Shown piece by piece: positions 21,001 through 30,000 of a DNA stretch of 64,000 bases. The position numbers are program-made. Position 1 is the first letter of the stretch, and every line of letters begins with the position of its first letter. Origin of the DNA: Trypanosoma brucei (Eukaryota). Where the stretch lies: NCBI GenBank assembly GCA_000002445.1, contig CP000067.1, forward strand, positions 1,526,433 through 1,590,432, written 5' to 3'.

Positions 21001-24000
21001 TGTTCTGACCACCATTCATCCTTCATTTTAAGCATTATATTAAACGCTTTCTCAAACTTTCTGAATGCCCAAACTCTGGCTATTATACCATCTACATTCA
21101 AGTAACCTTTATGATTTGCAGGCCACTTAATTAGGTGCGTTAGGTTTAGCTGCTCCTCTGCCAGATAGCAGCTTGAAAGAACCAGTAACATCTTTCCACA
21201 TGCTCTCTGTGTTCTGAGTTCATAAGTAAACCCAACTGGGGTACACAACACTGTGGAGTTGACATGAATAGAGTTGGAGATATTTGTCCATATTTTACTA
21301 TGTCTTCTTCCATAAACTTATCTTGGCTAGCTGCAATATTTTATATAATATACTTTACAGCATTTTCATACTTATTTCCATCACTAACAATAACATTAGA
21401 CCCATCTACGGTTATTACAATATCCTCATTACTTGCATTCTGTCTTTCTAAAAAATTCCATAACCCATCTAGGGTTCTTAACATTACTATACAAATCTCT
21501 CATCTCAATTGTAATAATTTCAATATTACTTAGTTTGGCACTCAATATGAATCTACACCATCCTTGAGTTACATGAGATTGAACTACAACAACAAATACT
21601 CTAGGATTCTTATGCTCATTATGCGTTATATTTGTTATTTCATTTGTGTTATTATCTTGAATAGTTATTAAGCTTAAACACGCCAAAAGTAATACCAGTG
21701 ACAAGAGTAATAGCAAAGATCTCAAGATAACAAATATCTTTACGCAGAAAACCTTTAAATTTTTAGAAAATACTATGAGGAAAAAAGAGTTTAACAAGAG
21801 AAGTCGGTTGAACCACTAAGACACTTAGCCGATGAATCATTTCCTACACATGTATAAGAAATTATCTGATACCTCTATGATACATCTGTTTAAGGGTGTA
21901 TGCTCAATATCTAAAGCCAACATATGTGTATGCATTTGCGGGTTTTGTTATAAAAGTTAGCTTGAATCACAGCTGCTGCAGCGTACTACACGCATTCAGC
22001 TGTTTCCTTGTCTTTTATACATTGCTGTTTTTATTAATTGCTATGGTAATTGTAGTATACATGTACAACATGTGGTTCAGATGTACTAAGAATATCACTA
22101 GTTTACTGTCATGACAGTCCCAACATCATTTTTTATTATAAGACCTTCATAACAATAGTTTCATTAATTACTTCTCTTAATGTTCTTGTTACAGTCATCC
22201 TTGCAATACCAGCCATCCATTTCTGTGTGAAATAAGGGTAACCACTGACCTCTTCCTGTATACTTTTTAAAAATTATTATTGTTACTCCGTCTAATAAGC
22301 TTTTGTATTCTGTGTTTTTTTAACTTTTTTATATACTTTTCCGCTGTTTCTGTGTATAATCTATCGACTCCAATTGGAATGTACACTATACTCTGTTTGT
22401 CTATTTCATATCCCCTAGATCATCCTGCGTATGGTGGTGCCCATAATTATATTTTTGTTTGGCGCTGCGCATATTCTATTTCCTTCACTTTCTGCTCTTC
22501 TTTTAATATTCCTCGTGCTCTCCCGCTTCGTCTCACTCATTTCTTCACTCACTCTCTTACTTTAATTTCACCACTTCTAATGTTTTAAGTGTTTATATTT
22601 TACCACTACATTCAAGTTTCAGAATCACCACATTATAATATTATTAAATATAAATTCACAAATCCCCCATCATAATAATTATTGTCATTACTATTACTAT
22701 AGATAATTCTCACTAATATTCACGTAACTTCTGATATCCATTTAGTAAACAAAATTAAACATCAGTCTTTATTTTAAACCGTATTACTCTACTACTTCAT
22801 GCACATAGACAACTTTCATACGAAAATTTCAGATTTTATACGCCTTATAAATTTCATTAATTTACACATTTTTATCAGAAAGTGTTAAAATATGTTGAAA
22901 ATTCTAGAATATTTAATAAATTTTCATGAATTTCATGAAATTAAGTAAAAATCTCTAAAATGACACTAAACTCACAAAAAGCAGCAGCCATCAGTGAAAT
23001 TTTGTTATTTAAGAAAAAACTAGTATCTTTGCAAGTTTTGCCCTCCAACGTACAATCCGTGGCTTTGCGGTCATCTTTGTTGGTATATTTGGAGCACTTG
23101 GAGTCAGTTTTCCCATCTTTCCCTGTTTCTTGGTTTGCTGCTGCCTTTTCAGCGGCTTCTTTTGTCAAGGTGCACTGCTTCCCTTTGTCGTTTTTATCGA
23201 CAAAATGGCATCCTTCCGTTTCGATGCATTTGGTTTTGTTTTTTCCTACGTCGTTAAAAATTTGCTTTGGTGTTGTCGCTGCTCCTTTGCTAATTTGCTT
23301 TTCTAATTCTGCAAATTTCCCTTTTAAAGCTTTGGTATTGAGGTCCTGGTAGTATGCCAGTGTTGCCGTTAGGTCCTTCAGTGTTGAAAGTGGTGTCAAT
23401 GGAACTTTTTCCGTTCCTTTGGCATTGAAGTTGTGGACTTGTGCTGTGCCGAAAGCAGTGTTGTACTCTTTCCATTGTTGCTTTCAGCCCAAAGGCTGTC
23501 TTAATTTCTTTTTTTAGCGGCTATTCTTCAGGTTGCGCTATTGTATCTTTGTTTTTAACTAGCATGGCGTAGACTGTCTTGAAGTCAGGATCCCTGGCGA
23601 TGCTGGCCACATCAACGTGGTGCCAGGGTCCAGTACCCCGTATCATCGGGGCAAGCCAAGAGCCAGCAGCGTTCTTCTCATGGGGAACACTGCTGTGCTC
23701 CGGCTACGGCATCATACAGCACAGGGATCAGCAGCGTCTTGCTGGGACACCGTTCTTCATTTGTCGGTCCCTGGGCACGTGCCAGCGTGCCATCAGCAGT
23801 ATCATCCGCACTAAGATGCTGCTGTCCGGTGATGTGGAAGAGAATCCCGGCCCGTCGTTGTGCGGGATGCAGTGGAACTGCGCCGGGCTAACTCAAGGAA
23901 AGAGATTAGCACTCCACAAAACCCTTGTTGATGAGCGGATCGCCTTTTGTCTGTTGAGCGAGACAAGAATGACGCCTGGAGAGGCGGCTTGCTTTAGCGT

Positions 24001-27000: not shown

Positions 27001-30000
27001 TGTGCCTCCACAGTGCCGATGGTGCAACCCGCAACATGCAGAGATAGGGCCAACAATACAAACGGCCCCACCTGTTGCGACACGCACTCTTCAGAGAATC
27101 TCCGATCCGACCAAATGTACGGAATGTGATGCCACATACCAATGCCGCTCGAGTGCTGTAACGCACATGGTAAACAAACATGGCTTTGTGCGAGCTGATG
27201 CCCTCCGGAGGATCAAATACGGCGATGCAACACCTGCAGTGGACATCCCCCCGGAGCCCCCTCCAGTGCTGGCGATCGTTCCTCTACCATCGAGCACACG
27301 AGTCCCGATGAGACCGCAGGTGCTTCATTGTACCCTTCTGTGCCTCCAAATTCGCAGTGCCAGGCCGACTATTACACCACCTTAGAACAATACATGGCAT
27401 AGGTAGCGGTAGTTGCCGCGTGAAAAGGGGGCGAGAGAACGAGTACTCATTGCAAGGAGATGGTAGAGCCCCAGCAGCGCCAGCCCCTCAGGATACACGG
27501 AAGCTGCCGTTTCAATGTGACCTGTGCGAGGCGAGCTTCGGTACACGCTCTTCCCTGTCACTACACAAGAAATTCAAACATAAAAGCATAGTGACTGAGG
27601 ACGGTACCGTGGTGTTGGTGCAATTCCCTCGTAAGCGTGCCCGTGAGGGAAACGTTGACGTCCCGGGGAAGGGCGAGGTGCAGTGTGGTGTGTGCCAAAA
27701 AGTGCTCAGTTGCAGGGACTCCCTCATCCGACACTGTAAGGCTTTCCATAAAGGTGAGGGAGCCGAGCTTAAATGCAGCAAAAGCACAAAATTGCGTGCC
27801 ACTGATTCCCCGCATACAAACACATCCATGTTGGTGTGCCCGACATGCGGAAGGCAGTGTGCTAGCAAAACTGGCCTCACCCTACATCAAAAGAAGATGC
27901 AAGGTATGAAGGTAAAGCACACTGTTATCAACCAACGCGGCGACTGCGAAGAAACGTCGCTGCACTTGATGAGCTGTCCCGGTTTGAAGGAGTTACGTGT
28001 CAGGTTTGCGGTAGAAGGCGTGTGTGTGCAGGATGTATGTTTCTCTAAAAGGTTGGCACAGTTTCTCATTGCGGTTGAACGGAGCCGGCCACAGGTGAAG
28101 TCCTCATTTAAGGTAACAGTCATACAACCCACTCTCCCTTCTGCAACTTCCCCCCTTATTACCGAGTGTGGAGCTAGCAGGAAAAGCACCGGACGCAGGA
28201 ATAGTCCAGACACCCTTACAGACAGAGGGGGTATGCAATCAACAAGCAACAGAAACAGAAAGAGGGGGAGAGAATAATAAACGAATAACAAAAATCAAAA
28301 CAAAAGGATTGCTAATTGACATCTTTTGGAGAGTCCGGGGTGAGGGGGGCTTCTCGCCCCTTCTGCTGTATTCCGTTCAACTGTAGAGCTACAACAAAAA
28401 TTATAGAGGGTGTGTTAGGATGAATAAAAAAGGGAGACTCTGCCACAGTCGCCAGACCGATAGCATCTCAGGGCTCTACGGTGATGGCTGATGGCCGCGC
28501 CAGTGGGGGGAAACTCCCACGAAGGCACGAAGAAAATTCCAAAAAAAAAATTAACTTTTCATGTGACATCCCGGATTTTTACTCCTCTAAAAGGTTGATA
28601 AACCGCTTGAACCGGGGGTTGAAGTTTATTACTCACACTTGTTGGTTATTTTTCTCGAAATTACATTCAAAATAACATTGGATTGCATTTTCTTCTGTCT
28701 CTCTGTCTCTCTCTCTATATATATGTATATCTCTCTTAAAAACCTTAAAATACTTCAATCTCTCACATTTGCAGGTCATGGCGTTGTGTGGATAACTTCT
28801 TCTGCCACCATGGCTCTAAGCACAACTTTAGCAACTATTGTAGCTGCTTTGGTCAACGACTGATAAGTAAAGTTCAGCTGGTTTCCAATTAGCTGCATTA
28901 CTGTCCTCCTTTTTACCTGCAGTTCATGCGTTATGGCTGGTTATAAATCTGAAGGTAGTTTCGCGCCGTTTATTGTTTATTATTATTTTTCGATATATAT
29001 GGTCTTGTTGTTGTGTGTGATAATGCAGTTTGAATTCTTTTTATATGGACGACTCTTTAGTGTAAAACCAATTTTTCGCAGGTGACAGATTTATTTGTAA
29101 TTCAAAACTCCAATTTATCTCCATTTCAAGGTTGCAACACATCTTCATCCCTCATCCATTAAATTCCCATCTATGTTTCATTATCTCATCTAGTTATCGC
29201 TCCAACCATCGAAAACGTTATATATCAAAATTTTAAATTTTATCTTTTTTAGCCGTATCTATTTTCCACATTTTCATCTATGCTTGTTATTTTTAGAATA
29301 ACAAATACCAGCAGGCTTTTTTGTGGAAACAACTCCATGCCTGTTTGTGGTGCGTATCGTGCTGCTGTGAGGCCAAAAGAGGCTTAATGCCTGGAAAATT
29401 GAGGCTACAAAGTGCTTTAAAGCTGATTTTTGTTTTTTGTGCTGCTATATGCTGGTCAAGCAACCACTTTTTAATTAATTACTCGCTCCTTCAAACGTTT
29501 TGATCTTTATCCAGTATACCAATGTTGAATAAAGTAACATACCCATCGATCCTCTATACTTCATAGACTTCCTTCATCTCTTCATATGTTTTCTATTTAA
29601 AAAATCCTTATTCTTATTTTAATTCTGCTGTCAACGATTATCCATTAGTAGTCCTGGTTTTAAAATTTTCTCCCACTCGTATTATGTCTGGTCCACAAGC
29701 GTTAGCACTTATTACTATATCTGCATAGAAGAAGAATTTAACATTACTTTACACCTACTTAATTTTTCTTTTTGCTTCCTTTTCTTCACAAATAAATACC
29801 AGTATCTGCCTTCAGATTAAAATATATGACTTCCACTATCTCTGTAGTAGCATCTATACTTTCTTGAGTAAAGAACAGTGTATTATCTGCTCCTCCCAAT
29901 GTATTACTTTTTTGCTGTGATCTGGTGTCTGCTGTTCAGTTGGTTTATTACATATTTTCCTTTCGTATTTTTCGTAAAATGTTTATATTTCTGCAGGAAA

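What the first reader, a model, noticed from the sequence alone, without database searches (positions are those of the whole stretch)
23588..28550. Degenerate ingi retrotransposon abutting a truncated VSG, with no obvious target-site duplication
ingi (plus strand) starts exactly where a minus-strand VSG C-terminal fragment (22941-23587) is cut off. The expected 5' part of that VSG is absent on the other side of the element (28551-30250 is non-coding-like). No direct repeat of 8 or more bp flanks the element. This pattern suggests ingi-mediated recombination or deletion rather than a simple insertion, a proposed mechanism of subtelomere remodelling. The ORF carries 3 nonsense mutations and 1 frameshift, so this copy is not autonomous.
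Basis: partly seen in the sequence, partly recalled or inferred. Interest (0 to 1): 0.55.

Follow-up and report, generated by a model that had tools for sequence, protein, structure and literature searches.

The report
Old ingi copy truncating a VSG
This is an already catalogued, decayed ingi retrotransposon in a Trypanosoma brucei surface-antigen gene array; it inserted normally into a VSG gene and later lost the DNA on its 3' side, which is ordinary for this element family.

Summary
The window is the last 64 kb of T. brucei TREU927 chromosome 4, a minus-strand VSG array.

- **Element:** a plus-strand ingi lies at 23592-28550. Its true 5' end is CCCTGG at 23592, not 23588. It has three in-frame stops, one frameshift and a 298-bp internal deletion.
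- **Left flank:** it abuts a VSG C-terminal fragment (22941-23593).
- **Right flank:** there is no VSG N-terminal sequence and no target-site duplication (TSD).

New here is a target-site matrix built from 66 published ingi/RIME 5' flanks. It shows that the left junction is a normal insertion junction. The recognition motif (23567-23578) and the predicted TSD TTGAAGTCAGGA (23579-23590) sit in register inside VSG coding sequence. Only 0.04-0.1% of control positions score as high.

So the ingi inserted normally into a VSG, and its 3' TSD and the VSG 5' half were lost afterwards. Point mutation cannot explain the loss, because the copy has only 2% private divergence. The second step is inferred. 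It was either recombination with another ingi (slightly favoured) or a microhomology deletion from the A-tail.

The element is already in a published catalogue, and TSD-less copies that keep the upstream motif are known for the sister element L1Tc. This is ordinary and of low interest.

The parts
22744..22940 (-). 3' UTR-like region of the truncated VSG (cassette n)
   Evidence: 69% identical to 30349-30630, the equivalent region of the next VSG.
22941..23593 (-). VSG C-terminal fragment, about 215 codons with one stop and one frameshift. It ends at the ingi 5' junction.
   Evidence: Pfam PF10659 Trypan_glycop_C, E=2e-14. 71% identity to T. brucei VSG P0030, whose EDPDFK aligns with the window's DPDFK at the junction. 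Frames shown.
23567..23578 (+). ingi target-site recognition motif GCGTAGACTGTC (positions -24 to -13 of the empirical consensus), inside VSG coding sequence
   Evidence: Matrix from 66 non-redundant TREU927 ingi/RIME 5' flanks. The full flank scores 7.92 bits and the motif alone 7.41 bits. Background fraction reaching this is 0.0004 for the whole window and 0.001 for VSG-coding plus strand.
23579..23591 (+). Predicted 5' copy of the TSD, TTGAAGTCAGGA(T). It is 12 nt plus one extra T, or a 13-nt TSD.
   Evidence: This is the only register that scores above background. The P0030 alignment indicates the T at 23591 is VSG sequence (GAT codon), so a 13-nt TSD is likely.
23592..28550 (+). ingi non-LTR retrotransposon, 4959 bp, complete at both ends, non-autonomous
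   Evidence: End-to-end alignment to full-length ingi copies. RVT_1, RNase_H and zf-C2H2 hits. Listed as 'Complete INGI', NC_007277 1550024-1554982, in PMC4660242 supplement 1.
23592..23670 (+). Conserved 79-bp 5' signature (Pr77 region); the ORF ATG is at 23600
   Evidence: Alignment starts at base 1 of the reference copies. P0045 residue 1 aligns at 23600.
24141..24157 (+). Junction of the 298-bp internal deletion, with one retained copy of a 16/17-nt imperfect direct repeat
   Evidence: The size and microhomology fit MMEJ deletions described in T. brucei (PMC3045614 abstract).
25373..25375 (+). In-frame stop 1 (TAG)
25658..25660 (+). In-frame stop 2 (TAA)
26960..26962 (+). In-frame stop 3 (TAA)
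27330..27340 (+). Frameshift, at P0045 residue ~1344
   Evidence: The tblastn frame changes at 27336/27337.
28541..28550 (+). A10 tail
   Evidence: Comparator copies have A9-A11.
28550..28562 (+). First bases of the 3' flank, (A)TTAACTTTTCAT. They are not the expected TSD. They weakly resemble a TSD of a different ingi insertion.
   Evidence: 4/12 match to TTGAAGTCAGGA. The TSD-only matrix gives 4.18 bits for ATTAACTTTTCA, reached by 1.5% of intergenic positions and 1.9% of after-A-run controls.
28551..30266 (.). Non-coding AT-rich spacer, probably the natural spacer between the 70-bp repeat and the VSG of cassette n
   Evidence: No ORFs and no VSG similarity. Its 1716-bp length lies within the 1.1-2.7 kb repeat-to-VSG distance of the other cassettes.
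30267..30320 (-). Single degenerate 70-bp-repeat unit that heads cassette n
   Evidence: Pattern match CACACTAACCAGAC...(YYA)n, like the units at 18381, 34760, 41616, 44929, 48325, 51614 and 54214. Similar to 51600-51660.
30349..31171 (-). 3' UTR and C-terminal or late N-terminal part of the next VSG pseudogene (cassette n+1)
   Evidence: Similarity to 22744-23022. Weak VSG_B hit, E=7.7e-6.

Best explanation
This is a two-step history.

Step 1 (shown). An ingi inserted by ordinary target-primed reverse transcription into a minus-strand array VSG. The element's endonuclease recognised GCGTAGACTGTC (23567-23578). It nicked the bottom strand at 23578/23579 and the top strand 12-13 nt further on. 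This left motif, then TSD, then a full-length 5' end at the left junction.

Step 2 (inferred). The DNA that then followed the A-tail was the second TSD copy TTGAAGTCAGGA(T) and the VSG N-terminal half. It was later exchanged or lost by homologous recombination between this ingi and a second ingi in the same orientation. That second copy had inserted in a spacer next to a 70-bp repeat, either a little upstream in the same cassette or at a non-allelic array position. The result is one ingi with intact ends whose 5' flank comes from insertion A and whose 3' flank comes from insertion B. About 0.85-1.8 kb, including the VSG 5' half, is gone.

The copy then decayed, or was already decaying: three stops, one frameshift and a 298-bp MMEJ-type deletion in the endonuclease domain. 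It has no function. Its effect is to turn a VSG into a C-terminal fragment.

I put the joint probability of 'normal insertion followed by a later change of the 3' flank', by any mechanism, at about 0.75. The figure given as confidence is for the inter-ingi recombination version only.
For: Step 1.
- The empirical target matrix (66 flanks) reproduces the known kind of pattern, a conserved motif just before a 12-bp TSD.
- It picks the exact register in a T. equiperdum ingi that is not close to any training flank (L001, 5.86 bits). It also picks the exact register in L003 and L005, whose overlap with the TREU927 training flanks I did not check.
- The window's left flank scores 7.92 bits in a single register. 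That is higher than 76% of genuine flanks, and only 0.04% (whole window) or 0.1% (VSG-coding plus strand) of control positions reach it.
- Motif and TSD lie in VSG coding sequence whose homology runs to the junction.

Step 2 in general.
- There is no TSD after an intact A10.
- Private divergence is 92/4639 = 2%, which predicts about 0.5 mismatches, not 8.

Recombination in particular.
- The breakpoint coincides with the element's end and the tail is intact. A crossover inside the element gives this automatically.
- The first 12 nt of the right flank look like an ingi TSD (4.18 bits; 1.5-1.9% of matched controls).
- One of four comparator ingi copies (L003) also lacks a TSD yet has the motif.
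[quoted passage not shown] About half of L1Tc/NARTc copies lack a TSD but keep the upstream motif (PMC5814959). HR dominates double-strand-break repair in T. brucei (PMC3045614).
Against: - There is no second ingi or RIME anywhere in the 64 kb.
- No catalogued TREU927 ingi/RIME has a 5' flank containing TAACTTTTCA or ATTAACTTTT, so no donor or reciprocal product is visible.
- A sliding comparison with five other ingi copies shows no clear switch of nearest relative along the element. Private substitutions are evenly spread. The power of this test is low.
- The right flank has the length and position expected for this cassette's own spacer. That fits a purely local deletion at least as well.
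- The TSD-only score is weak evidence (p about 0.02-0.04 after allowing for registers).
- The motif register is 1 nt off the modal spacing.
Confidence: 0.42

Rival explanations
1. Step 1 is the same normal insertion into the VSG. Step 2 was a local deletion of about 1-2 kb by microhomology-mediated end joining or replication slippage. It used the ingi A-tail (plus the TT that starts the TSD) and an A-rich tract in the spacer upstream of the VSG. It removed the 3' TSD, the VSG N-terminal half and part of the 5' region. No second ingi was involved.
For: - The right flank (28551-30266, 1716 bp) sits directly below this cassette's own 70-bp repeat. Its length is in the normal 1.1-2.7 kb range for the spacer. 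The simplest reading is that only the VSG 5' half and a little more is missing.
- The same element carries a typical MMEJ deletion: 298 bp between 16/17-nt imperfect repeats. This matches the 5-20-bp microhomologies with tolerated mismatches and the mean total deletion of 284 bp reported in PMC3045614.
- NHEJ is unreported in T. brucei (same source).
- The junction AAAAAAAAAA|TT allows an A(n)TT microhomology.
- There is only one ingi in the window, and no reciprocal flank in the catalogue.
Against: - The deletion would have to start exactly at the end of the tail, leaving A10, a length typical of intact copies.
- 1-2 kb is much larger than the mean MMEJ deletion reported.
- The deleted sequence is unknown, so the microhomology cannot be checked.
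- The right flank's first 12 nt score like an ingi TSD, which this model treats as chance.
Confidence: 0.33
2. Insertion-coupled deletion. The VSG 5' half was lost during retrotransposition itself, for example through resection of the priming strand to a downstream T-tract before reverse transcription, or through second-strand cleavage at a distance.
For: Retrotransposition-associated target deletions are well known for human L1 (my own knowledge, not checked here). They would explain the missing TSD in one step. The tail is intact and directly joined to the spacer.
Against: In the standard version the second nick falls on the motif side. The motif would then be lost or out of register at the 5' junction. 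Here motif, 12-13-nt spacing and a full-length 5' end are all canonical, and it is the primer side that is wrong. That requires a non-standard and undocumented variant.
Confidence: 0.08
3. Assembly artefact. The reference sequence joins the 5' part of one ingi to the 3' part of another through the 5-kb repeat, so the two flanks are not adjacent in the real chromosome.
For: ingi copies are 94-98% identical over 5 kb. The window is the extreme subtelomeric end of a clone-based Sanger assembly and ends at an EcoRI site.
Against: This copy is distinctive: a 298-bp deletion, 92 private substitutions spread evenly, and no change in divergence pattern along its length. The cassette geometry to the right is normal. 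The question cannot be tested further with these tools.
Confidence: 0.07
4. Simple insertion at the edge of a VSG fragment that was already truncated, with the TSD since lost to point mutation.
For: About a fifth of array VSGs are fragments, mostly C-terminal (my recollection of Berriman et al. 2005, not checked here).
Against: The TSD match is 4/12 although the element has only 2% private divergence. Motif and TSD lie within continuous VSG coding sequence. The right flank shows no VSG sequence at all.
Confidence: 0.03

Closest known systems
Tbingi (ingi4 subclade) non-LTR retrotransposon of T. brucei, full-length but non-coding copy
   Same: It has the 79-bp 5' signature, the single APE-RT-RNaseH-C2H2 ORF layout, the 2A-like DVEENPGP, an A-tail and the upstream target motif. 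It is 94-98% identical in DNA to intact copies.
   Different: It has no TSD. It carries a 298-bp endonuclease deletion, three stops and one frameshift. The motif spacing is 13 nt rather than 12.
TSD-less L1Tc/NARTc copies of T. cruzi (Bringaud et al. 2006, as summarised in PMC5814959)
   Same: These are full-length elements without a TSD that are still preceded by the conserved target motif, which is exactly the pattern found here.
   Different: They belong to a different species and subclade (ingi6), with a different motif. The cause of the TSD loss was not looked up in the original paper, which is not held.
ingi/RIME-mediated rearrangements between T. b. brucei and T. b. gambiense (PMC2854126)
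   Same: Indels and rearrangements occur at ingi/RIME positions and are attributed to recombination between copies.
   Different: Those cases were seen by comparing two genomes. Here only one genome is available, so the partner and the ancestral state are not observed.
MMEJ deletions in T. brucei (Glover, Jun & Horn 2011, PMC3045614)
   Same: The internal 298-bp deletion between 16/17-nt imperfect repeats matches the reported signature. The 3'-flank loss could be the same process using the A-tail.
   Different: The 3'-flank loss is several times larger than the reported mean, and its microhomology cannot be seen.

Membership tests
ingi (Tbingi) retrotransposon | Conserved 79-bp 5' signature (Pr77) starting CCCTGG | tested here: met
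   The alignment to four full-length copies begins at their first base = window 23592.
ingi (Tbingi) retrotransposon | [quoted passage not shown] | tested here: met
   RVT_1 E=8e-45, RNase_H E=2e-7, zf-C2H2 E=1e-4 (below Pfam's gathering score: 23.1 bits against 27). 91-94% protein identity to the intact 1656-aa ORF P0045. The endonuclease is partly deleted, so the copy is non-autonomous.
ingi (Tbingi) retrotransposon | 3' A-rich tail | tested here: met
   A10 at 28541-28550.
ingi (Tbingi) retrotransposon | 12-bp target-site duplication | tested here: not met
   4/12 at the adjacent position, best 6/12 nearby. This is a feature of a fresh insertion, not of the element's sequence. One of four comparator copies also lacks it.
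ingi (Tbingi) retrotransposon | Conserved target motif just upstream of the 5' TSD | tested here: met
   7.92 bits, top 0.04-0.1% of controls, 1 nt off the modal register.
DIRE (degenerate ingi-related element) | Highly diverged vestige with many frameshifts and stops and no close identity to active ingi | tested here: not met
   94-98% DNA identity to intact ingi copies and only four ORF lesions plus one deletion. It is a decayed ingi, not a DIRE.
VSG gene (C-terminal part) | Trypan_glycop_C domain and a hydrophobic GPI-signal tail | tested here: met
   PF10659 E=2e-14. The fragment ends ...SLMAAAFCEFSVILEIFT*.
VSG gene (complete) | N-terminal domain (A or B type) and signal peptide | tested here: not met
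   Nothing in 28551-30400 in any frame.
Retrotransposition-associated target deletion (L1 type) | Canonical 3' junction at the first nick, with the 5' junction displaced so that target sequence on the recognition side is lost | tested here: not met
   Here the 5' junction, with motif and spacing, is canonical and the 3' side is the anomalous one.
Inter-element homologous recombination product | Swapped TSDs: this element's 5' TSD found 3' of another copy, and its 3' flank found 5' of another copy | tested here: inconclusive
   No catalogued TREU927 5' flank contains the right-flank sequence. The 3' flanks of other copies and other genomes could not be searched.

The most novel reading that the evidence does not exclude
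The loss of the VSG 5' half happened during integration, by an undescribed variant of target-primed reverse transcription. After the canonical bottom-strand nick, the priming strand would be resected 1-2 kb to a downstream T-tract before reverse transcription began. This would give a canonical 5' junction and a deleted 3' flank. If general, ingi integration itself would be a direct source of VSG C-terminal fragments in the archive.
Probability: 0.07. Interest if true: 0.5.

Novelty: already known. Interest (0 to 1): 0.15.

Why it matters
It matters little beyond this locus. It is one worked example of how a retrotransposon insertion and a later rearrangement turn an array VSG into a C-terminal fragment. 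Such fragments are raw material for mosaic VSG formation.

The useful by-product is a method. A target-site matrix built from published 5' flanks can tell, for any TSD-less ingi/RIME, which flank is the original one. Applied genome-wide, it could count how many subtelomeric rearrangements passed through ingi copies.

Tried and rejected
- **Exact-protein look-ups.** Three window ORFs (VSGs 48868-50145 and 38356-39786, and the fragment ORF 22941-23399) were looked up to find the same locus in other assemblies. None is on record, so no cross-strain 'empty site' comparison was possible.
- **Homologue search with the VSG fragment.** It gave one partial VSG with no genomic context.
- **Rfam scan of 22000-31000.** No hits, so the HDV-like ribozyme of Pr77 is not detected by any Rfam model.
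- **Key papers.** Bringaud et al. 2004 (MBE) and 2009 (Eukaryot Cell) are not held. I rebuilt the target consensus from the Data in Brief supplement instead.
- **That supplement.** It lists most loci twice with inconsistent coordinates (for example 150094 and 1550024 for this element). I used only the flanks, and de-duplicated them.
- **Search of the supplement for the right-flank sequence as a 5' flank of another element.** None found.
- **Sliding-window test for a chimeric ingi against five other copies.** No clear breakpoint; low power.
- **The short ATCCC(T)GG similarity** between the 5' junction and 28568-28576. I dismissed it as chance.

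
Full report
**Where the window comes from.** Two ORFs of the window are exact matches to T. brucei brucei TREU927 proteins. These are XP_844695.1 (an atypical VSG, 38356-39786 minus strand) and XP_844696.1 (a glycosyltransferase, 61318-62187 minus strand). Both lie on a 1,590,432-bp record. A published catalogue of ingi/RIME in TREU927 (Khan et al. 2015, PMC4660242, supplement 1) lists an ingi on NC_007277 (chromosome 4) at 1550024-1554982. It is on the plus strand, labelled 'Complete INGI', with element positions 1-5256 and genome coverage 4958. 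Its 100-nt 5' flank is identical to the window sequence left of 23592. The offset of 1,526,432 places window position 64000 at the chromosome end. The window is therefore the last 64 kb of chromosome 4. It is a subtelomeric array of minus-strand VSG genes and pseudogenes spaced every 3-4 kb. The element in question is already catalogued.

**Checking the observation.** The ingi aligns end to end with full-length copies fetched from T. equiperdum: L001, L002, L003 and L005, at 94-98% identity.
- The alignment begins at CCCTGGCG, window 23592. It ends in an A10 run at 28541-28550.
- The missing DNA is one 298-bp deletion at 24141-24157. It lies between the imperfect direct repeats CACGTGGAACGGCGCTG and CACGTGGACATCGCTG. 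It removes residues about 187-282 of the endonuclease domain of the intact 1656-aa ORF.
- On the minus strand, 22941-23593 encodes about 215 codons of a VSG with one stop and one frameshift. It matches Trypan_glycop_C at E=2e-14. It is 71% identical to a T. brucei VSG (P0030) whose sequence continues N-terminally beyond the junction.
- To the right of the tail, 28551-30400 has no ORF and no similarity to any VSG N-terminal domain.
- No direct repeat, even with mismatches, links the flanks.

**Which flank is the original one?** The two key papers on ingi target sites are not held. I therefore rebuilt the target consensus from the 5' flanks printed in the catalogue supplement, giving 66 non-redundant flanks that exclude this element.
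- The pattern is clear: G or C at -24, G at -22, T at -21, G at -19 and -18, T at -16, then T or A at -12 and T at -11 at the start of the 12-nt TSD. This is the kind of pattern the literature describes, a conserved motif immediately before a 12-bp TSD (PMC3820030).
- The matrix picks the exact register in a T. equiperdum ingi that is not close to any training flank (L001, 5.86 bits). It also picks the exact register in L003 and L005. I did not check whether those two overlap the training set.
- On the window's left flank, every register scores like background except one. With the flank ending at 23590 the score is 7.92 bits. That is higher than 76% of genuine flanks in leave-one-out scoring. 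Only 0.04% of all window positions and 0.1% of plus-strand VSG-coding positions reach it. Allowing for five registers, p is about 0.005.
- The motif is GCGTAGACTGTC (23567-23578) and the predicted TSD is TTGAAGTCAGGA (23579-23590). One further T (23591) precedes the element. The VSG homologue shows that this T belongs to a GAT codon of the VSG, so the TSD was probably 13 nt.

The left junction is therefore a normal target-primed insertion junction inside VSG coding sequence.

**What this implies.** In a normal insertion, the A-tail is followed by the second TSD copy and then by the rest of the target.
- Comparator copies show this: L005 has a perfect 12/12 TSD directly after its A-run, L002 has 11/12 when counted by eye across a 1-nt indel (the ungapped comparison cannot score it), and L001 has 8/12.
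- In the window, the 12 nt after A10 (TTAACTTTTCAT) match the predicted TSD at only 4/12.
- The element has 92 private substitutions in 4639 comparable sites, or 2%. Decay would predict well under one mismatch.

The 3' flank was therefore changed after insertion. An insertion-coupled deletion of the usual kind is unlikely. It would displace the 5' junction and lose the motif, and here it is the primer side that is wrong.

**How much is missing.** Single degenerate 70-bp-repeat units mark the head of each cassette. They lie at 18381, 30267, 34760, 41616, 44929, 48325, 51614 and 54214. Each is 250-600 bp below the previous VSG stop and 1.1-2.7 kb above the next VSG start. The unit at 30267-30320 belongs to the truncated cassette. 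The spacer from there to the ingi tail is 1716 bp, which is a normal length. The simplest reading is that the right flank is this cassette's own spacer. On that reading, about 0.85 kb of VSG N-terminal coding sequence plus at most about 1 kb of upstream DNA has gone.

**Mechanism of the second step (inferred).** Two models remain.

(a) Homologous recombination with a second ingi in the same orientation.
- It explains why the breakpoint coincides with the element's end and why the tail is intact.
- It has modest support from the right flank: ATTAACTTTTCA (28550-28561) scores 4.18 bits with the TSD-only part of the matrix. That is above the upper quartile of genuine TSDs, and only 1.5-1.9% of matched intergenic controls reach it.
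- It agrees with the literature. ingi/RIME recombine and cause rearrangements (PMC2854126). About half of T. cruzi L1Tc/NARTc copies lack a TSD yet keep the upstream motif (PMC5814959).
- One of my four comparator copies (L003) shows the same pattern.

(b) A local microhomology deletion that used the A-tail.
- It needs no second element, and there is none in the 64 kb.
- It fits the preserved cassette geometry.
- It is made plausible by the textbook MMEJ deletion inside this same element. T. brucei repairs breaks by HR and MMEJ, using microhomologies of 5-20 bp with tolerated mismatches, with a mean total deletion of 284 bp (PMC3045614).

Two tests did not separate the models. No catalogued TREU927 element has the right-flank sequence as its 5' flank. 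A sliding-window comparison with five other ingi copies shows no clear chimeric breakpoint. Both are compatible with either model. I give (a) 0.42 and (b) 0.33. The remainder goes to an insertion-coupled variant, an assembly mis-join through the repeat, and near-refuted simple-insertion readings.

**Comparison with what is known, and verdict.** This is a Tbingi copy in every sequence feature that defines the family. The one missing feature is the TSD, which is a property of the insertion site rather than of the element. It is too similar to active copies to be called a DIRE. The element is in a published catalogue, and the class of TSD-less, motif-retaining copies is described in the sister family. 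The finding is already known in kind and of low interest. The one reusable idea is scoring flanks with a target-site matrix to decide which side of a TSD-less element is original.

Noticed in passing
window 55340-55800: An A-rich (plus-strand) tract with scattered degenerate telomere hexamers: CTAACCC at about 55478 and 55584, CTAACCCTAA...CCTAACCCTAA at 55744-55783, and one inverted GGGTTAGG at 55373. It lies directly 3' (in the minus-strand sense) of the VSG at 56210-57678. It looks like a decayed interstitial telomere tract behind a VSG that was once telomeric.
   Followed up: partly
window 24141-24157: The ingi's 298-bp internal deletion lies between 16/17-nt imperfect direct repeats. Its size and microhomology match the MMEJ deletions measured experimentally in T. 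brucei (PMC3045614).
   Followed up: yes
L003 5993-11241 (T. equiperdum QSBY01000016.1): Another full-length ingi without a TSD (best 6/12). It has an irregular 3' end (GAAGAAGAATAAC instead of an A-run) but an in-register upstream target motif (3.25 bits).
   Followed up: partly
window 13590, 18381, 30267, 34760, 41616, 44929, 48325, 51614, 54214: Single degenerate 70-bp-repeat units (reverse complement on the plus strand: CACACTCACAACAC, then a short gap, then (YYA)n). They punctuate the array at regular positions, 250-600 bp below each VSG stop.
   Followed up: partly
PMC4660242 supplement 1: The published ingi/RIME catalogue lists most loci twice with inconsistent coordinates; this element appears at both 150094-155052 and 1550024-1554982 of NC_007277. 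Flanks of plus-strand elements include the element's first base. It should be used with care.
   Followed up: partly
window 61318-62187 (-) and 63995-64000: A non-VSG gene (UDP-Gal/GlcNAc-dependent glycosyltransferase, XP_844696.1) sits inside the VSG array. The window, and the chromosome record, ends at an EcoRI site (GAATTC) with no telomere repeats, so the assembly stops short of the true chromosome end.
   Followed up: no
window 31757-32155 (-): A 132-aa ORF upstream of the VSG_B-like segment of cassette n+1 has no Pfam hit and does not look like a VSG N-terminus. Cassette n+1 may itself be rearranged, since its 70-bp repeat at 34760 is unusually far away (about 2.5 kb).
   Followed up: no
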